Source: a virus
UHGV virus genome: UHGV-1992300
Reading direction: 5' to 3' (one strand)
DNA: 48,818 bases
Positions 359 through 5,667 of the stretch are shown here, piece after piece. The position numbers and the translations under genes are program-made. Each line of letters begins with the position of its first letter. The stretch's first letter is position 1. The notes beneath the pieces are model-generated. The model saw only the letters and a list, made by a program, of their open reading frames with translations. It was not told the DNA's origin and did not search any database.

Positions 359-2830
359 TTAAGAATCAGCCTGACTCGGGATCAGTTTTTGCCAGATAAC
401 TGAAACGTATTTTGCTTGGTAACGGGCGTCATCAAGTGCATTATGGCGCTCACCTTCGAATGGAATAGCCGTTCTGGCATCGAAATCTATGGCTTTCCCC
501 AGCTCAACGATTGTGCGTACATCGCGATCGTTGTAGTAACGCCACGGGCAGGGGATCCCCTGCCGTTCGTATGAACGGCGCAAAATCGTGTTGTCGAAGT
601 TGGCTCCATTTCCCCAAACCTGAACAAAAAATTCACCGGAGTTTTCGTCGATAAATTCCCGCAATTGTAACAGTGCATCATCTAGCGGGATTTCATCGGT
701 CATAATGGCAGATTGTGCTTCGCGTGATTGCTTAAGCCACCATTTAATGGTGTCCCGATCAATGACTCCGCCAGCAGTTTCCAGATCGATAGTCTTACTA
801 AATTCCGGTCCTATATCTCCGGTTTGCGGATCGAAAAATATTGCACCTATTGAGATGATCGGTGCATCAGGATTTTTTCCCATGGTTTCAAGGTCGATCA
901 TTAGATGGTCACACGTCCTGCTGGTGGATGTGATTTCGTGATGACTGTTCACCTTAATTGAGTGATCTGCCGTCTCGCCAGTTTCATTATCGCTATTGTG
1001 ATGCTGATTGCCGCCAGTGTTCTCCTTGTGTGGATGTTCAGCGCCTTCCATTTCCTCCGGATCATCTTCCTGAACTTCAACCTGATACTCTTCATCGAAT
1101 GTTTTTTGGTATGTTGCGTCGCCCATCACCGCGCCACAATCAGGGCAGTTGCCGCCGCCGGTCTGACCGCAGGCGGTGCAGACTTTTTCCACTTCCTGTT
1201 GCGCCACTGGTTCAGGCTGTTTCGTTTCTGGCTCGTTTTGTAACGCATTTGGGCTGTTTTGTTCCGCTTTTTGGTAGTTCCGTTCCGATTCATGCTGGTT
1301 CTGGTTCACAGAATCGCGGGTCTGGATCCCCTTAACCCATTTCGGATCATTCGGGTCACTAATCCCTTCAACAAATTCACCATGTGATGCAGCAAGCAAC
1401 TTATCGGCGTCAGGCTGGCTGATATTGGCTGCCTGCATAATTTTGTTTACTTCGTCAGCGGTAACTTTTATCGGCTCTGGTTGTTCTGAATCTTCAGCGG
1501 TATCTACATTTTGCGGTAAGCCCGTGTATGTGCCATTTTTTCGGGCAAAATATTCTTCTTTTGTGATTTCAGTGGCGCCAGCAGCCAGTGCCTTATCCAG
1601 ACCAGAAAGTTTGTTTGCGCGACCGTATTTTTCTCCGTCCTTATCTGTGAAGAGGAAATAGAACGGCCCCTCACGCTCTACAGATGGTTCAGCTTCCGGC
1701 GCGGTTTCATTTTTTGGGATATCAGATACCTCAGTTTCCACTGCATCAGTTTGTGTTTCTGATGACTGGAGAACATCAACAGTGCCCAGGTCTGTTTCTT
1801 CATTCTCAAACACGCCCTTTGTCGTCAGGTATTCGCAGATATATTTGTTCAGTGCTACGGGATCTTTGTGAATGTCGATCGGACGCTCACGGACAAGGCC
1901 AAAAATAGTTTGGCGGTCGTAGCGAAGGGCATCAGGCTGTTTGCGCATTGATGCCGAGATACGCTTCCAGTCTTCGCGGTCGTTGTCGATAACTTCTTTT
2001 TTTGCCCAGCGATGGATGCTGCCGTCAATGTTTCCGGCATCCACATCACCAGGCCAGAGAGCGTAGGCCAGTTCGTCATCCAGTGTTTTCCATGTCTGCT
2101 TGTATTCGCGATGAATGGCAGCAATGACCGGGCTGATTTTTCCTGTTGAATTTTCACTGTGCTGTTGATTGGTTCTGGCGCGGGCGAGATCAACAACAGA
2201 CGTGTATTTTCCGGTTTCCTTGCGTTCACCTTCGCGACGTTTTTTCCAGATGCGCATCTCTGCCTGAATTTCGGGCCATTTGGCACCAGGCTTACATTTA
2301 TGCTTAACCCACCCGATGGCATGCAGCTTAAGCTCCGGATACATGGCGTTAACTTCTGGCATTTTCATCAACGCTTCAACGATATGTCCGTCGAATGTTG
2401 CCATGTCTTCCTGCAACAATTCCTGTGCGCTAATAACCATATCAACGGTGATGTTTTCACATGTGTCGAACTTAACCATGACAGCGTTCTGTACTTCAGG
2501 GGCCAGCTTGTCAAAAGTGACGTTCATCGGATCGGATTCAGTCTCAACCGGGACAAAGGAAGCAGACTCCTCATCCCAGCGGTTTTCCTGCATATATTCA
2601 GCATCCCAGGAATCGAGGGCAGGGCGGGGTATACCGGGTTTATCCTCGCAGACAAGAAATTTATAAGCGCAGTCCTGAGCAGCCGGATAATGTTCCAGGA
2701 ATTGCCAGTGAAATTTTGCGCGGGCGCGACGTTCATCACCGGCTTCAATGGCAGTGGCTACAGCGACGGCACCTTCTTCCTTTATTGCCTGTTCGTCCGG
2801 AATGGCGGCGCAAATAAAGACTTTACTCAT
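359..2830 (-). CDS. large prophage exonuclease (annotated in relatives as exodeoxyribonuclease VIII-like); C-terminal DnaQ/DEDDh-type 3'-5' exonuclease domain
   Basis: 823-aa ORF with GAGGT RBS. C-terminal ~190 aa carry exonuclease motifs ('MIDLETMG', 'WGNGANFD', 'HNALDDA'); central Cys4 'CTACGQ...CPDCG' zinc-ribbon-like motif. No adjacent recT/bet-like partner seen. Confidence 0.75.
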   Translation of the reverse strand: MSKVFICAAIPDEQAIKEEGAVAVATAIEAGDERRARAKFHWQFLEHYPAAQDCAYKFLVCEDKPGIPRPALDSWDAEYMQENRWDEESASFVPVETESDPMNVTFDKLAPEVQNAVMVKFDTCENITVDMVISAQELLQEDMATFDGHIVEALMKMPEVNAMYPELKLHAIGWVKHKCKPGAKWPEIQAEMRIWKKRREGERKETGKYTSVVDLARARTNQQHSENSTGKISPVIAAIHREYKQTWKTLDDELAYALWPGDVDAGNIDGSIHRWAKKEVIDNDREDWKRISASMRKQPDALRYDRQTIFGLVRERPIDIHKDPVALNKYICEYLTTKGVFENEETDLGTVDVLQSSETQTDAVETEVSDIPKNETAPEAEPSVEREGPFYFLFTDKDGEKYGRANKLSGLDKALAAGATEITKEEYFARKNGTYTGLPQNVDTAEDSEQPEPIKVTADEVNKIMQAANISQPDADKLLAASHGEFVEGISDPNDPKWVKGIQTRDSVNQNQHESERNYQKAEQNSPNALQNEPETKQPEPVAQQEVEKVCTACGQTGGGNCPDCGAVMGDATYQKTFDEEYQVEVQEDDPEEMEGAEHPHKENTGGNQHHNSDNETGETADHSIKVNSHHEITSTSRTCDHLMIDLETMGKNPDAPIISIGAIFFDPQTGDIGPEFSKTIDLETAGGVIDRDTIKWWLKQSREAQSAIMTDEIPLDDALLQLREFIDENSGEFFVQVWGNGANFDNTILRRSYERQGIPCPWRYYNDRDVRTIVELGKAIDFDARTAIPFEGERHNALDDARYQAKYVSVIWQKLIPSQADS

Positions 2831-2922
2831 TTTGTTTTACCTCATTACAGATTTAAGGGTGAACAAATCCCTGCCATTGCTGGCATATAAGAATGAAACC
2901 GGATATTTATTACGGAACTGTT

Positions 2923-3114
2923 TTAAAGACCTGCCGGGATTTCGTTATTATCCTGGTGAATAACTTTATCGACCGGGTAACAGTTACCGGGAATTTTCTG
3001 TTCGGTTGCTGCAGTCACACACTCCTGCATTGTCCTGTGAACACTGACTGCAATATCAACTGGCTCTCCGGAAACAAGAAAAACTGTCAGAACAAGTGCA
3101 AATGCTGTATTCAT
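2923..3114 (-). CDS. ydfD: YdfD-like small membrane (lysis) protein
   Basis: 63 aa from internal ATG 'MNTAFALVLTVFLVSGEPVD...': N-terminal hydrophobic helix; start overlaps the stop of the upstream DicB-like ORF; matches my recollection of Qin YdfD. Confidence 0.5.
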   Translation of the reverse strand: MNTAFALVLTVFLVSGEPVDIAVSVHRTMQECVTAATEQKIPGNCYPVDKVIHQDNNEIPAGL

Positions 3115-3299
3115 TGCCAGCATCCTTTTTGTATCGGACGTAAACGGGCCAGCATTGAAAGAATGCATATTTTATTTAATAGCTCCCGTTCGTGTTTTCT
3201 CTTGTTAATGGCATCTTCAGTAAATACAGGGTTACTGATATTGACACCAATTTCAAAACAACCTTCAGACGTATTAACGTTTGGTAATAACGTTTCCAT
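3111..3299 (-). CDS. dicB: DicB-like cell-division inhibitor
   Basis: 62 aa 'METLLPNVNTSEGCFEIGV...NKICILSMLARL' with GAGGA RBS; near-identical (from memory) to E. coli DicB; lies downstream of a DicF-like element. Confidence 0.65.
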   Translation of the reverse strand: METLLPNVNTSEGCFEIGVNISNPVFTEDAINKRKHERELLNKICILSMLARLRPIQKGCWQ

Positions 3300-3468
3300 T
3301 ATCGCGTCCTCAACAATGAATTTTGTGATGCGGTGCCTGGTGCCTCCAGGTGACGTTAACCAGTTAACAATTAACGCCGGATACAGAGAATCCACCCATA
3401 ACACTGTTTTTGGTTTTAACTGTTCCGCGTGCGCTCAGCCGCATTCACCACATCACAAAATTCACTTT

Positions 3469-3526
3469 AAAAAGGGCGGCAGAGCAGTCACGGAGTAAAA
3501 CTGATACCGCCAAACGTCACCAGAAA
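3469..3526 (-). ncRNA. dicF: DicF-like small RNA
   Basis: Minus-strand read is TTTCTGGTGACGTTTGGCGGTATCAGTTTTACTCCGTGACTGCTCTGCCGCCCTTTTT: GC hairpin plus U-tract terminator, ~170 nt upstream of the DicB-like ORF, matching the DicF sequence as I recall it. Confidence 0.6.
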
Positions 3527-3862
3527 ATTGATAACAGAGGGCGTTGCAGCGGGGTTGTCACTTAAGCGTATGGTCAACCTGACAACTCGGTNNNNNNNNN
3601 NNNNNNNNNNNATAACCCCGCCATACTTACCGCCGCGCCATTTCGCGGATTGCCACAACCGGAAGCGCACGGTCGACGAAAATTTAACGACAGGCTATCT
3701 ATGAACCAGCTACCTCGCCGTGCGCTTTCGCGTTATGGTCTGACTTTTCAGGGAAATATCCTTTCAGTAAACTGTCAGTGCCGGATGCTCACCCGTGTCC
3801 GGCGCGCGCACTCCACCTCACCCGTGGAGAACTCCTTAATCACCAACCCTCAGGAGGGTGAA

Positions 3863-4138
3863 ATGTCGACTGAAAATGATGAAATCATTAACTCCCTGAT
3901 ACGCCAGATTAATAATTTTGATAAAGCATTGCAACATGCTGCGGCGCGTAGTGATATAACTCTTTTAGCAATTTCATTTCTTGCATCTGTTATGGATAAA
4001 AATGAAGTCGTACGACAGAGTCTTGTTGATTATATCGACTCGCTTCAACCCGGCACTTTCAATCATGAGAGCTTCAATCATGAGAAAGAGCATGTTAAGT
4101 CTGTAATTAATTCTCTTATTTTGAATCAAAAGAATTAA
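3863..4138 (+). CDS. hypothetical protein (AT-rich, opposite orientation to the early-left operon)
   Basis: 91-aa ORF from ATG 3863 with strong SD (AGGAGGGTGAA-ATG); AT-rich coding sequence; overlaps the 3' end of a minus-strand ORF by 23 nt. No recognisable domain. Confidence 0.4.
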   Translation: MSTENDEIINSLIRQINNFDKALQHAAARSDITLLAISFLASVMDKNEVVRQSLVDYIDSLQPGTFNHESFNHEKEHVKSVINSLILNQKN

Positions 4139-4448
4139 TGCTTTTTGTTGCAAAGTAATTTTCAAGGGGTTCTATTCGAATCCCTTTCTTTTTCATTAAC
4201 AAGCCAAACCCCTTATCAATGATGTCCATTAGATCCAGGAAGTATTTTTCATGTAAATCCTGGTTATCAGAGAGCTGCTTCTCTTCGTACAGCCCGATAA
4301 AGGCTCGGCGTACGTTACCGGATATATTGTCGATGGTTTCTTTTTCTACGGTACTCAGGTCAAGAGTCGCCAGTTGAGAGCGAACCACATTCGATGCCAT
4401 TTCCTGGAATGGTACTGGTAAATCTTTAAATTCCATCGTCAACCTCAT
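4116..4448 (-). CDS. hypothetical early-left operon protein
   Basis: 110-aa ORF whose ATG overlaps the stop of the upstream ORF (ATGA coupling); no recognisable domain. Confidence 0.45.
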   Translation of the reverse strand: MRLTMEFKDLPVPFQEMASNVVRSQLATLDLSTVEKETIDNISGNVRRAFIGLYEEKQLSDNQDLHEKYFLDLMDIIDKGFGLLMKKKGIRIEPLENYFATKSINSFDSK

Positions 4449-4681
4449 CAGTCAGTGTTTCTGGTTAACCAGCGACGCGCGCCAGCTTCAGTTTTAAACG
4501 TTTTGCTTCTGGTATACGTCATCGCGGTAAACGTGCCGTCCTGGTTGGGGAACACGCCACATACCAGAGATTCGTTGTTGCCAAGATTGAGCATATCCAT
4601 GTTGACCTCATTTCCCCTTAACGCCGGGGTAGCGGAACAAAAACCTGCTGCATAGTTATTAAAGTTGAAACCTGCCGTCAT
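4448..4681 (-). CDS. hypothetical early-left operon protein (first gene after PL-like promoter)
   Basis: 77-aa ORF immediately downstream (leftward) of the operator/promoter region at 4783-4826; occupies the ydfA-like position. Confidence 0.45.
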   Translation of the reverse strand: MTAGFNFNNYAAGFCSATPALRGNEVNMDMLNLGNNESLVCGVFPNQDGTFTAMTYTRSKTFKTEAGARRWLTRNTD

Positions 4682-4782
4682 GTTCTTACGCCTCGGGCTG
4701 GCTACTTAACCCCTGACCACTGCCTGGTAACTCGAAGTATTGCCCTGCATTCTGTGGGGCGGGGTGGGTTGGTATGAAAAGA

Positions 4783-4826
4783 AGGATACCCATAGGTATT
4801 TAAAAAGTAAATACCCATGGGTAAAT
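4783..4826 (-). promoter_or_regulatory. PL-like leftward promoter with two palindromic operator sites
   Basis: Minus-strand read gives -35 TTTACT, 17-bp spacer, -10 TATCCT. Overlapping palindromes ATACCCATAGGTAT (4786-4799) and TACCCATGGGTA (4812-4825) share half-sites with the sites in the divergent cI/cro region. Confidence 0.5.
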
Positions 4827-4865
4827 TTTTGCGGTGTCTTAACTGGTGACTAGTTGTTTGGTGAG

Positions 4866-5285
4866 CTATGATGCGTTTTGTGCTTTCTTTTTACGGATTT
4901 CTTCGTAGATCATATTGTAATACTGTTTTTTCTCTTCAAGAGTTTTTAATAATTTATCCGCTTCACTTTCTGGCAGTTCGTCTAAGAGATCTAAAAAAAT
5001 ACGTTGTCGTGGCGTTAGAACCCTTGTTTCATAACTGGAGGCTGTGTTCGTTGATGATGAAACGATACCATCCATCCATCCCCGGGGTAACCCAAAGGAC
5101 TCTTCGATAATCTCCACCATATCATCAGCGATCCGTTTTTTTCCCTTTTTCCCCTCTGGGTACAACATTCTTGATACATAAGAAGGCTCGCGCCCGATCT
5201 TTCTGGCCACGTTAACCGCTTTACCATCGCATTTCTCATCACGAATTTTGATGAGTTGCTGTCGTCTAAATTCATATTTGTCCAT
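4866..5285 (-). CDS. CI/DicA-like prophage repressor (HTH)
   Basis: 139 aa; N-terminal HTH-like segment 'VARKIGREPSYVSRMLY'; C-terminal region resembles DicA ('LLDELPESEADKLL...'); divergent from a Cro-like gene across an operator-rich 100-bp spacer. Confidence 0.75.
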   Translation of the reverse strand: MDKYEFRRQQLIKIRDEKCDGKAVNVARKIGREPSYVSRMLYPEGKKGKKRIADDMVEIIEESFGLPRGWMDGIVSSSTNTASSYETRVLTPRQRIFLDLLDELPESEADKLLKTLEEKKQYYNMIYEEIRKKKAQNAS

Positions 5286-5304
5286 AGGTAAATAATAGAT
5301 GCGA

Positions 5305-5360
5305 TTACCGCAAGGTAAACAACCTGTGGGTATTGACTTTTGTTTACCTGTGGGTATTCT
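5305..5360 (+). promoter_or_regulatory. OR/PR-like operator-promoter region
   Basis: Three related sites TTACCGCAAGGTAA (5305-5318), ACCTGTGGGTATT (5322-5334) and TACCTGTGGGTATT (5345-5358); -35 TTGACT (5333-5338), 16-bp spacer, -10 TATTCT (5355-5360); AAGGAG RBS precedes the ATG at 5386. Confidence 0.55.
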
Positions 5361-5385
5361 TTGCTGTGTTTACTAAGGAGTAGCT

Positions 5386-5667
5386 ATGGAAGAATTAAGA
5401 ATATTTCTCAATTCTCTTTCGTCAGATGAACAGCGTATGTTTGCATGCGAGTGTGGTACCAGCATCGGTTATCTAAGAAAGGCATTGAGTAAAGGTCAAG
5501 TGTTAGGGGCATCGTTATGTGTCCTTATTGAGCGAGCCAGTAATGGTGAAGTTACACGTCAGCAACTAAGGCCTTTTGATTGGATGAATATTTGGCCCGA
5601 GCTGGAAGATACCAAAACGTTAACACAACCACTTTCTAGGAGCTTGATTCATGAAAATCAAGCATGA
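5386..5667 (+). CDS. Cro/YdaS-like HTH regulator
   Basis: 93 aa; 'GTSIGYLRKALSKGQ' HTH-like segment; position and size match Cro/YdaS-family proteins of Rac/Qin-type prophages. Confidence 0.7.
   Translation: MEELRIFLNSLSSDEQRMFACECGTSIGYLRKALSKGQVLGASLCVLIERASNGEVTRQQLRPFDWMNIWPELEDTKTLTQPLSRSLIHENQA

What the first reader, a model, noticed from the sequence alone, without database searches (positions are those of the whole stretch)
3863..4138. AT-rich plus-strand ORF embedded antisense in the early-left operon
All other early-left genes run on the minus strand from the PL-like promoter. This 91-aa ORF has a strong SD inside a GC-rich palindrome (CCCTCAGGAGGG), an AT-rich body, and overlaps the 3' end of a minus-strand gene convergently. 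That is a moron-like signature in a region where lambdoid phages often carry exclusion genes.
Basis: seen in the sequence. Interest (0 to 1): 0.45.

Follow-up and report, generated by a model that had tools for sequence, protein, structure and literature searches.

The report
Prophage accessory gene behind structured leader
The 91-codon ORF is a real, selected prophage gene of unknown function, pointing against the phage's early genes where lambda and Rac carry their exclusion gene sieB, and it lies behind a conserved folded RNA leader that fronts many unrelated small genes in other phages.

Summary
Observation confirmed. ORF 3863-4138(+) is annotated by RefSeq as a hypothetical protein. It is AT-rich (35% GC against 52%). 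It overlaps a minus-strand gene tail-to-tail by 23 nt and lies inside a Qin/Sp9-type dicBF early-left operon (DicF at 3474-3525). It is coding: dN/dS is 0.28 in frame, within-clade SNPs are 9 synonymous to 4 non-synonymous, and all indels are in frame. It belongs with phrog_18692 in one uncharacterised family, linked through a Salmonella intermediate. The family is confined to Escherichia and Salmonella prophages. In three different phage backbones it is always antisense to the early lytic operon. The main finding lies outside the given coordinates. An ~85-nt plus-strand leader (3780-3862) has a conserved 5' hairpin, a covarying second hairpin and an anti-SD/SD helix. A -10-like hexamer sits 5-8 nt upstream in every context. 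The same leader precedes at least ten unrelated small ORFs elsewhere. One of them, ECs1762 of O157 Sakai, has been detected as an RNA-crosslinking protein in an uninduced lysogen. The gene occupies sieB's position but is not SieB. The protein is an acidic three-helix bundle with no informative homologue. Its role in exclusion or defence is inferred, not shown.

The parts
3745..3773 (+). Candidate sigma-70 promoter: -35 TTTTCA (3745-3750), 17-nt spacer, -10 TAAACT (3768-3773). The predicted start is about 3779-3781.
   Evidence: It scores only 8/12 against consensus and was missed by the 9/12 scan. A -10-like hexamer sits 5-8 nt upstream of hairpin 1 in all 13 contexts examined. These include contexts with unrelated upstream sequence (TAAAAT; TGnTATTAT). 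Inferred, not mapped.
3780..3803 (+). Leader hairpin 1, GCCGGAUGCUCACCCGUGUCCGGC, at the predicted 5' end of the transcript.
   Evidence: The stem is invariant in 28 diverse leaders. It is extended by U.G and G.U pairs that exist only in the plus-strand RNA. The plus-strand fold has z = -2.65 and the minus-strand fold z = +0.12.
3811..3829 (+). Leader hairpin 2, CUCCAC-CUCACCC-GUGGAG.
   Evidence: It shows compensatory changes across phage backbones (CCCGAC/GUCGGG, CCCAAC/GUUGGG). Other leader types have longer, unrelated stems at the same place.
3832..3856 (+). Anti-SD CUCCU (3832-3836) paired with AGGAG (3852-3856), which is part of the SD GGAGGG at 3853-3858.
   Evidence: RNAalifold keeps this helix in both the 10- and the 28-sequence alignments. 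The closing pair covaries (A-U in 23 and U-A in 5 of 28). The SD is at least partly paired in all 28 single-sequence folds.
3863..4138 (+). The 91-aa ORF (A1). It encodes an acidic (pI 5.4), all-helical, soluble protein of the phrog_18692-like family.
4164..4196 (+). Terminator-like hairpin AAGGGGUUCUAUUCGAAUCCCUU followed by UCUUUUUCAU, 26 nt past the stop codon and inside the convergent gene.
   Evidence: 9 pairs, 4 G-C. As read from the sequence, the complementary minus-strand hairpin is not followed by a T run. It should therefore stop only plus-strand transcription.
4116..4436 (-). Convergent early-left gene 'B' (106 aa, phrog_6937). It has a constant N-terminal ~50 aa and a variable C-terminus, and its last 23 nt overlap the ORF.
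4448..4681 (-). YdfA/YdaF-like DUF1391 gene, the first gene of the early-left operon (RefSeq calls a 50-aa version).
3526..3862 (-). Untranslated dicF precursor region of the early-left transcript. It is complementary to the ORF's promoter and leader, and it contains the N-gap at 3592-3611.
   Evidence: PMC5069750; PMC10448788.
3474..3525 (-). DicF small RNA.
   Evidence: Rfam RF00039, 76.7 bits against a gathering score of 48.

Best explanation
The ORF is a genuine, independently transcribed accessory (moron-type) gene of a Qin/Sp9-like lambdoid prophage. It occupies a cargo slot embedded antisense in the early-left (dicBF) operon, the position that sieB holds in lambda and Rac. Proposed working, with steps marked. 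(1) While the prophage repressor keeps the early-left promoter off, a weak plus-strand promoter at 3745-3773 starts a transcript at about 3780 (inferred from comparative placement). (2) The ~83-nt leader folds into a 5'-terminal hairpin, a second hairpin and an anti-SD/SD helix, so translation is held low or gated (structure supported by covariation; its effect on translation is inferred). (3) The 91-aa product is made and the transcript ends at the hairpin and T tract at 4164-4196 (inferred). (4) When the early-left operon fires, transcription runs head-on through the gene and produces RNA fully complementary to its mRNA and leader, which switches the gene's expression (inferred by analogy with P22 sieB/sas). 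(5) The protein is a soluble acidic three-helix bundle with no catalytic signature, so it most likely acts by binding a partner. The most likely arena is conflict between phages (exclusion of superinfecting phage), or control of the prophage's own toxic early products. This last step is the weakest. Rough sub-probabilities: real selected protein gene 0.95; own transcription unit expressed in the lysogen 0.6; exclusion or defence role 0.3.
For: Coding and selection: dN/dS is 0.28 in frame only, SNPs are 9 synonymous to 4 non-synonymous, and indels are in frame. All 198 of 5,426 complete E. coli genomes that have the ORF carry it at 80% or more of its length. Family: the intermediate P0098 is 36% identical to A1 (E 7e-11) and 47% identical to phrog_18692 members (E 2e-25). 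Conserved antisense placement in three backbones: the dicBF/Sp9 type, Salmonella Rac-like prophages between ydaE and the repressor, and Cox/C-type elements. In each, the gene overlaps the 3' end of the upstream early gene. Transcription-unit signals: a positionally conserved -10; a leader structure with 97% of cells paired and a covariation score of 0.160, against 0.056 +/- 0.015 in shuffles (0/500) and at most 0.047 when slid; plus-strand-specific folding; and a plus-strand terminator-like site. Cargo slot: the same SD-ATG or leader precedes A1, A4, A3 and A2 and at least six further unrelated families. Dispensability: many loci keep gene B and the dicF leader but lack the ORF. Expression of the slot in a lysogen: ECs1762, the A2 cargo behind the same leader in Sakai Sp9, was recovered from uninduced cultures in the UV-crosslinked RNA-associated proteome and labelled in a PNK assay (PMC7618764). 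Positional parallel with sieB.
Against: No transcript, start site or protein data exist for this allele. The candidate promoter is weak (8/12) and was missed by the standard scan. The leader region is also part of the conserved dicF precursor on the other strand, which could explain part of its conservation in E. coli. That does not explain its conservation in Salmonella Rac-like and Cox-type contexts. A2 is unrelated to A1 and basic (pI 9.5 against 5.4), so its RNA binding cannot be transferred to A1. There is no hit to any defence model. The fold is a generic helical bundle. The covariation rests on related sequences, and hairpin 2 could not be aligned across all leader types.
Confidence: 0.6

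Rival explanations
1. The plus-strand unit works mainly as RNA. Its transcript is a cis-antisense RNA that pairs with the early-left (dicBF) precursor and the 3' end of gene B. This promotes RNase III cleavage or transcriptional interference and keeps the toxic DicF/DicB output low in lysogens. The encoded protein is secondary.
For: The promoter and hairpin 1 persist in many loci that have lost the SD and ORF, and in ydfC-type loci. The transcript would be fully complementary to the dicF precursor, whose maturation involves RNase III (PMC10448788). All cargo types overlap the 3' end of the upstream early gene. Precedents exist in P22 sas and BTP1 STnc6030.
Against: Purifying selection acts on the protein frame. 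The family is conserved at protein level down to about 26-36% identity across genera. The conserved anti-SD/SD helix makes sense only if translation matters. This reading could co-exist with the main explanation.
Confidence: 0.2
2. The ORF and the variable C-terminal half of the convergent gene B form a cognate pair, such as effector and inhibitor, or a lysogen-expressed defence with an early-expressed self-immunity factor (as with SieB/Esc or BstA/aba).
For: Each cargo type is linked to one B C-terminus. A1 goes with the 106/109-aa B, A4 with the 133-aa B, and A2 with the 135-aa B whichever of two N-terminal variants B carries. The Salmonella Rac-like partner (71 aa) is homologous to the B4 C-terminus (59% identity, E 1e-22).
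Against: The two genes are adjacent and overlap physically, so linkage is expected anyway. B stays intact in frequent loci without any cargo. In Cox-type elements the partner is a different HTH-like protein. No interaction could be modelled with the tools available.
Confidence: 0.15
3. The protein is an RNA-binding regulator like ECs1762, the cargo of the same slot in O157 Sakai.
For: ECs1762 crosslinks to RNA in vivo (PMC7618764). Another cargo of the slot matches the GhoS endoribonuclease family at threshold.
Against: A1 is not detectably related to A2 or to the GhoS-like cargo, and it is acidic. It has no known RNA-binding domain.
Confidence: 0.1
4. There is no gene. The ORF is a chance open frame, or the interval belongs to a minus-strand gene interrupted by the N-gap.
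For: The frame stays open 53-140 codons upstream of the ATG in A1 loci, and some annotators-162-aa versions.
Against: The selection signal is specific to the plus frame and the reverse frames contain stops. The upstream extension is closed 14 codons (A4, A3) or 0 codons (A2) before the shared ATG. The N-gap lies 250 nt away in the untranslated dicF precursor, and the unmasked sequence shows no annotated gene there.
Confidence: 0.02

Closest known systems
sieB (superinfection exclusion B) of lambda, P22 and the Rac prophage, with the P22 sas antisense RNA
   Same: The genomic logic is the same. Both are single genes on the opposite strand inside the leftward early operon. In lambda, sieB lies between ral and N. 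In Rac, it lies between the division-inhibitor module (kilR and the KilS sRNA) and the DUF1391 gene ydaF, which it meets tail-to-tail. Here the order is dicB, DicF, ORF, gene B, DUF1391 gene, repressor. In P22, antisense RNA changes what is translated from sieB (PMC12197685, PMC7067206).
   Different: There is no sequence similarity (BLASTP E 1.8), no Pfam SieB hit and no hydrophobic segment of membrane-spanning length. The protein is half the size of SieB. The structured leader found here is absent upstream of sieB in Rac and lambda. No exclusion phenotype is known.
phrog_18692 (PHROGs family of unknown function)
   Same: The two are homologous through intermediates. A1 matches the profile end to end at E 0.022, hhalign gives 31% identity over 78 columns, and P0098 bridges both. 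Length, leader, orientation and slot are the same.
   Different: A1 is a separate clade with about 26% identity to phrog_18692 members. HMMER alone does not connect them: an exhaustive phmmer search of 1.84 billion representatives found only A1 itself.
ECs1762 of E. coli O157:H7 Sakai prophage Sp9 (an RNA-associated protein found by TRAPP)
   Same: It occupies the same slot, behind the same leader, with SD and start codon at the homology break. It shows the same 23-nt convergent overlap with a B-type gene, and it is flanked by dicB and a DicA-type repressor at the ompW integration site.
   Different: The sequence is unrelated (phrog_10348), the protein is basic, and the spacer before the ATG is one base shorter. 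Its RNA crosslinking (PMC7618764) says nothing direct about A1.
Prophage morons / accessory loci encoded antisense to lytic genes (for example STMMW_20121 of ST64B)
   Same: Both have an autonomous promoter-gene-terminator unit, foreign base composition, presence/absence polymorphism and orientation against the lytic operon (PMC7067206).
   Different: This unit carries a conserved, covarying 5' leader with a sequestered SD that is reused with many different cargo genes in several phage lineages. I found no description of this in the library searched, and no Rfam family covers it.

Membership tests
SieB superinfection exclusion protein (Pfam PF14163) | Sequence match to the SieB family or to a characterised SieB | tested here: not met
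   No Pfam family at E <= 1. BLASTP against Rac SieB gives E 1.8 over 10 residues.
SieB superinfection exclusion protein (Pfam PF14163) | Hydrophobic, membrane-associated protein of about 160-190 aa (feature taken from my own knowledge of the family) | tested here: not met
   The protein is 91 aa. The maximum Kyte-Doolittle score over 19 residues is 1.43 for A1 and 0.89-1.24 for relatives, below the usual 1.6.
SieB superinfection exclusion protein (Pfam PF14163) | Gene on the opposite strand inside the leftward early operon | tested here: met
   The layout matches lambda and Rac.
SieB superinfection exclusion protein (Pfam PF14163) | Aborts lytic growth of superinfecting phages | not testable with these tools
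   Needs plating assays.
phrog_18692-like small protein family | Detectable homology over the full length | tested here: met
   Transitive homology: A1-P0098 E 7e-11, P0098-A4 E 2e-25. Fourteen columns are invariant in the joint alignment, including R29, D31, E74, K75 and H77.
phrog_18692-like small protein family | Same genomic slot, leader and orientation | tested here: met
Moron (autonomous prophage accessory unit) | Own promoter and own terminator | tested here: inconclusive
   There is a positionally conserved but weak -10/-35 and a plus-strand terminator-like hairpin. No transcript data exist for this allele. A different cargo behind the same leader is expressed in an uninduced lysogen (PMC7618764).
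Moron (autonomous prophage accessory unit) | Base composition unlike the neighbours | tested here: met
   34.8% GC against 55.4% upstream and 51.6% for the window.
Moron (autonomous prophage accessory unit) | Present or absent among otherwise similar phages, so dispensable for phage growth | tested here: met
   Loci without the ORF, and loci with ydfC in its place, share the flanks.
Known anti-phage defence systems (PADLOC-DB 2.0) | Match to a defence-protein model | tested here: not met
   The only match is BrxA at E 0.014, 12.7 bits, a partial hit.
Type I toxin-antitoxin (convergent antisense RNA, small hydrophobic toxin) | Toxin under about 60 aa with a membrane helix; antisense RNA partner | tested here: not met
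   The product is a 91-aa soluble acidic protein. Convergent overlap and a structured leader with an occluded SD are shared features. Toxicity was not tested.
Rfam RNA families (for the leader) | Match to a curated covariance model | tested here: not met
   Only DicF, a sub-threshold STnc100 hit and a spurious miRNA hit were found in 2800-5500 at E <= 1.

The most novel reading that the evidence does not exclude
The conserved promoter-leader is a reusable 'cargo port' shared by lambdoid (Qin/Sp9-like, Rac-like) and Cox/C-type temperate phages. In this reading, its sequestered ribosome-binding site is unlocked, or its mRNA is cleaved, when the perfectly complementary early-operon transcript of an induced or superinfecting related phage appears. 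A lytic-cycle RNA signal would then become a switch in translation of whichever small effector sits in the slot. That would be an RNA-triggered, modular exclusion or abortive-infection device, with the 91-aa protein as one of at least ten interchangeable effectors.
Probability: 0.12. Interest if true: 0.85.

Novelty: new variant of a known kind. Interest (0 to 1): 0.58.

Why it matters
The kind of element is familiar: a prophage accessory gene set antisense in the early operon, as sieB is. Two things appear to be undescribed. First, the 91-aa protein belongs to a fast-evolving, uncharacterised family. That family keeps the same antisense placement in three different temperate-phage backbones. 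Second, the gene is driven by a conserved, covarying 5' leader with an occluded ribosome-binding site, and the same leader fronts at least ten unrelated small proteins. Cargo types A1-A4 were found in about 1,060 of 5,426 complete E. coli genomes if counted once each. These include O157:H7, where the neighbouring gene ECs1763 is already used as a marker of genomic island OI-57. If the slot is a hotspot for phage-phage conflict genes, it offers a ready list of small candidate effectors and a defined RNA element to test. It also bears on how the toxic dicBF operon is kept in check, because the unit is complementary to the DicF precursor.

Tried and rejected
1. Family libraries. Pfam, NCBIfam, PADLOC and PHROGs scans of the 91-aa protein gave nothing above noise, apart from a weak full-length phrog_18692 match.

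2. Exhaustive phmmer search against 1.84 billion representatives. It found only the protein's own cluster and one spurious repeat protein.

4. Longer ORF. Versions of 145-162 aa starting upstream are rejected, because the upstream frame is closed in loci that carry other cargo types behind the same leader.

5. Minus-strand gene across the N-gap. Rejected.

6. A3 (73 aa) and A2 (77 aa) as relatives of A1. A3 gave hhalign E 0.45 against the A1/A4 profile. A2 matches only its own PHROG family and was not compared directly.

7. Leader upstream of sieB. The covariance model found nothing in Rac K-12 or lambda (best E 0.64, not at sieB) and no second copy in the window.

8. Per-species genome scan with the B N-terminal domain. 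It returned only two E. albertii loci, because the method needs exact 8-mers.

9. Literature. Searches on dicF/ydfC antisense transcription, lambdoid defence hotspots and EDL933 locus tags gave nothing on this ORF or leader. The K-12 annotation shows no antisense RNA in the ydfC-dicF spacer.

10. Hairpin 2 in the 28-sequence alignment. RNAalifold did not recover it, because the stems differ in length and register. It was supported only by the 10-sequence alignment and by single-sequence folds.

Full report
**1. What the window is**

The left end of the window is the early region of a lambdoid prophage of the Qin/Sp9 (PPompW) type. A 99.9% identical E. coli chromosome has the same block next to ompW. 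On the minus strand it carries integrase, excisionase, a 823-aa exonuclease, a DUF1482 (YdfD-like) gene, dicB, a 106-aa hypothetical gene, a DUF1391 (YdfA-like) gene and a repressor. On the plus strand it carries cro-like, YdaT-like and replication genes. Rfam places the DicF small RNA at 3474-3525 on the minus strand, at 76.7 bits against a gathering score of 48. The minus-strand genes therefore form a dicBF-type early-left operon. In K-12 Qin this operon is transcribed from a promoter next to the repressor gene. [quoted passage not shown]

**2.

- The ORF runs from ATG 3863 to TAA 4138, 91 codons. RefSeq annotates it as a hypothetical protein.
- GGAGGG lies 4 nt before the ATG inside CCCTCAGGAGGG.
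- The ORF is 34.8% GC. The 250 nt upstream are 55.4% GC and the window is 51.6%.
- It overlaps the 3' end of the 106-aa minus-strand gene by 23 nt.
- The N-gap at 3592-3611 lies in the untranslated dicF precursor. The identical genome reads gtcctcaacgggggaaggaa there, and no gene is annotated.

**3. It is a protein-coding gene under selection**

The exact protein occurs on at least 1,000 contigs, and its 90% cluster also includes Salmonella enterica and E. albertii sequences. The ORF is present, at 80% or more of its length in every case, in 198 of 5,426 complete E. coli genomes.

IMG/VR loci supply 14 DNA alleles in two clades that are 79% identical at protein level. Between the clades there are 44 nucleotide differences:

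- dN/dS is 0.28 in the ORF frame.
- It is 0.65 and 0.94 in the two shifted frames, and 0.44-1.62 on the reverse strand, where every frame has stops.
- Within the main clade, unique SNPs are 9 synonymous to 4 non-synonymous, although non-synonymous sites are about four times more numerous.
- The length variants of 86, 91 and 96 aa differ by whole copies of a 15-nt repeat (NHESF).

**4. The true start is 3863**

In A1 loci the frame stays open far upstream, and some annotators call products of 117-162 aa. The same upstream sequence precedes other ORFs, and there the frame closes 14 codons (A4, A3) or 0 codons (A2) before the shared ATG.

**5. What family it belongs to**

No Pfam, NCBIfam or PADLOC model matches. 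An exhaustive phmmer search of 1.84 billion cluster representatives finds only the protein's own cluster.

PHROGs gives one weak but end-to-end match to phrog_18692 (E 0.022). A 92-aa protein of that family (A4) sits at the same place in other prophages. Profile-profile comparison gives 31% identity over 78 columns, E 1e-3.

A profile search with both clades recovered a third clade from Salmonella (P0098, P0099, P0100). P0098 is 36% identical to A1 over the full length (E 7e-11) and 47% identical to A4 (E 2e-25). These therefore form one family. Fourteen columns are invariant in the joint alignment, among them R29, D31, K46, R51, E74, K75 and H77.

The protein is acidic (pI 5.4) and has no segment hydrophobic enough to span a membrane. 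AlphaFold gives three helices (2-43, 48-60, 68-84) at pLDDT 72.5. Fold searches return only generic helical bundles.

**6. The genomic placement is conserved across phage types**

- In E. coli, all 58 A1 loci examined have the dicF precursor region on one side and gene B on the other, apart from two that run off the contig end on the dicF side. The repressor/cro module, dicB allele and exonuclease vary.
- In Salmonella Rac-like prophages, a family member lies between ydaE and the repressor. It is on the opposite strand to RecT, RecE and YdaE, and it overlaps a 71-aa early gene by 41 nt.
- In elements with a P2-style switch (C-like repressor and integrase on one strand, Cox on the other), it lies one gene downstream of cox. 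It is again antisense to the early operon and again overlaps the preceding gene.

The K-12 and lambda records show the same logic for sieB. Rac reads kilR, KilS sRNA, then sieB on the other strand, then ydaF (DUF1391), ydaG and racR. Lambda reads ral, then sieB on the other strand, then N. The ORF therefore sits in the sieB position. It is not SieB.

**7. The slot holds interchangeable cargo**

Homology with ydfC-type phages such as Tritos stops at 3848 and resumes at 4469.

The exact string CCCTCAGGAGGGTGAAATG is followed in IMG/VR by three ORF types: A1, A4 and a 73-aa A3 (phrog_7249). A variant with one fewer A is followed by a 77-aa A2 (phrog_10348). Counts in the 5,426 complete E. coli genomes are 198 for A1, 127 for A4, 650 for A2 and 88 for A3.

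Every type converges on a gene B that has a constant N-terminal ~50 residues and a type-specific C-terminus, with 11-41 nt of overlap.

Many loci keep B and the dicF precursor region but lack any cargo. In them, 64 nt replace window 3827-4119. The ORF is thus dispensable and behaves as a discrete unit.

**8. The leader**

This is the main finding. The ~85 nt before the ATG are conserved even between the E. coli dicBF context, the Salmonella Rac-like context and the Cox-type elements, where the sequence further upstream is unrelated.

On ten diverse sequences RNAalifold predicts three helices:

- Hairpin 1 (window 3780-3803) is invariant. It is extended by U.G and G.U pairs, which exist only in the plus-strand RNA.
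- Hairpin 2 (3811-3829) has compensatory changes at two pairs (U-A/C-G/A-U and C-G/G-C/A-U).
- The third helix pairs CUCC(U/A) at 3832-3836 with (A/U)GGAG at 3852-3856. The latter is the Shine-Dalgarno region, and the closing pair covaries.

Counting on the named structure gives 97.1% of cells paired. There are 11 double-sided changes, against 3.8 +/- 1.4 in shuffles. The covariation score is 0.160, against 0.056 +/- 0.015 in shuffles (0 of 500 reach it) and at most 0.047 when partners are slid. The sequences are related, so these controls are indicative rather than a probability.

The plus-strand RNA of the window folds much better than shuffles (z = -2.65, well-defined centroid). The minus strand does not (z = +0.12).

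In 28 diverse leaders, hairpin 1 and the anti-SD/SD helix survive in the consensus, with the closing pair A-U in 23 and U-A in 5. Twenty-six of the 28 fold on their own into three hairpins with the SD at least partly paired. Hairpin 2 differs in length and sequence between leader types but is always a hairpin.

A -10-like hexamer lies 5-8 nt upstream of hairpin 1 in all 13 contexts. These include near-consensus TAAAAT and TGnTATTAT where the flanking sequence is unrelated. In the window it is TAAACT at 3768-3773, with TTTTCA 17 nt upstream.

A terminator-like hairpin with a T tract follows the ORF on the plus strand only. No Rfam family covers the leader. It is present once in the window and is absent upstream of sieB in Rac and lambda.

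**9. The leader fronts many unrelated genes**

A scan for hairpin 1 variants in IMG/VR, added to the earlier loci, gives 55 distinct leaders. They precede the following:

- the A1/A4/P0098 family
- A2
- A3
- a 64-aa ORF (phrog_4987)
- a 69-aa ORF (phrog_4274)
- ~60-aa ORFs (phrog_17494)
- 94- and 100-aa ORFs (phrog_8894)
- CxxC-containing 61- and 80-aa ORFs (phrog_10133)
- 112-aa and 81-aa ORFs with no family
- two very short doubtful ORFs

That makes at least ten unrelated families. The 94-aa phrog_8894 ORF matches the GhoS endoribonuclease family at the curated threshold (21.2 bits against 21). All others have unknown function.

**10. Evidence that the slot is expressed in a lysogen**

In O157:H7 Sakai prophage Sp9, which is integrated at ompW, the slot is ECs_1762. 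This is exactly the A2 protein, flanked by dicB (ECs_1761) and B2 (ECs_1763).

A 2025 study recovered native ECs1762 in the UV-dependent RNA-associated proteome of uninduced cultures. It also confirmed RNA crosslinking with a tagged copy in a PNK assay, and noted that the protein has no recognisable RNA-binding domain (PMC7618764).

This shows that a plus-strand gene behind this leader is translated without prophage induction. It does not show what A1 does, because A2 is unrelated and basic while A1 is acidic.

**11. Interpretation**

Shown:

- The ORF is a real, selected gene.
- It belongs to a family with conserved antisense placement.
- It lies behind a conserved plus-strand leader structure that includes SD occlusion.
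- The slot carries interchangeable cargo, with presence/absence polymorphism.

Inferred:

- The promoter and transcription start.
- Expression of this allele in the lysogen.
- Silencing or switching by head-on early-left transcription, by analogy with P22 sieB/sas.
- A role in phage-phage conflict or in control of the dicBF products.

The rival readings are an RNA-level antisense function, a cognate pairing with the variable half of gene B, and RNA binding. None is excluded, and the first could co-exist with a protein function.

**12. Novelty**

The kind of element, a moron antisense in the early operon like sieB, is known. The protein family is uncharacterised. I found no description of the reusable structured leader in the literature library or in Rfam. 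I rate the finding as a new variant of a known kind, of moderate-to-good interest.

Noticed in passing
window 3474-3525 (-): A full-length DicF small RNA (Rfam 76.7 bits), with dicB downstream. The early-left operon is therefore a dicBF operon. The finding lies antisense to the DicF precursor, whose RNase III site in K-12 is about 137 nt upstream of DicF.
   Followed up: partly
window 3592-3611: The run of N masks 20 nt of the untranslated dicF precursor region. A 99.9% identical genome reads gtcctcaacgggggaaggaa there. No gene is interrupted.
   Followed up: yes
[not shown]
   Followed up: partly
window 4060-4089 (+), inside the ORF: A 15-nt tandem repeat (CAATCATGAGAGCTT / CAATCATGAGAAAGA) encodes NHESF/NHEKE. 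Natural alleles have one, two or three copies, giving proteins of 86, 91 or 96 aa.
   Followed up: yes
L434, L449, L477, L474 (IMG/VR contigs): The same leader precedes 94- and 100-aa ORFs of phrog_8894. The 94-aa ORF matches the GhoS endoribonuclease/antitoxin family at the Pfam threshold. Together with RNA-crosslinking ECs1762, this hints that some cargo acts on RNA.
   Followed up: no
window 4787-4823 (both strands): A 16-bp imperfect palindrome (TACCCATGGGTATTTA...TAAATACCTATGGGTA) followed by a T-rich tail lies between the repressor gene and the first early-left gene. It could be a terminator for the repressor gene, an operator-like site, or both. It also gave a spurious miRNA hit in Rfam.
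   Followed up: no
window 3267-3476 (-): A sub-threshold Rfam match to STnc100 (38.7 bits against a gathering score of 47) covers the whole spacer between DicF and dicB.
   Followed up: no
L542 6406-6503 (K-12 Rac): Rac carries an annotated small RNA, KilS, between kilR and sieB. This is the position DicF holds relative to dicB and the ORF here. The two prophage types therefore share a layout of division inhibitor, sRNA, antisense accessory gene and DUF1391 gene.
   Followed up: partly
L041, L056, L266 and about 40 other IMG/VR loci: Cargo-less loci keep the candidate promoter, hairpin 1 and half of hairpin 2, then run straight into the 3' end of gene B. If the promoter is active, these loci would make a pure antisense RNA.
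   Followed up: partly
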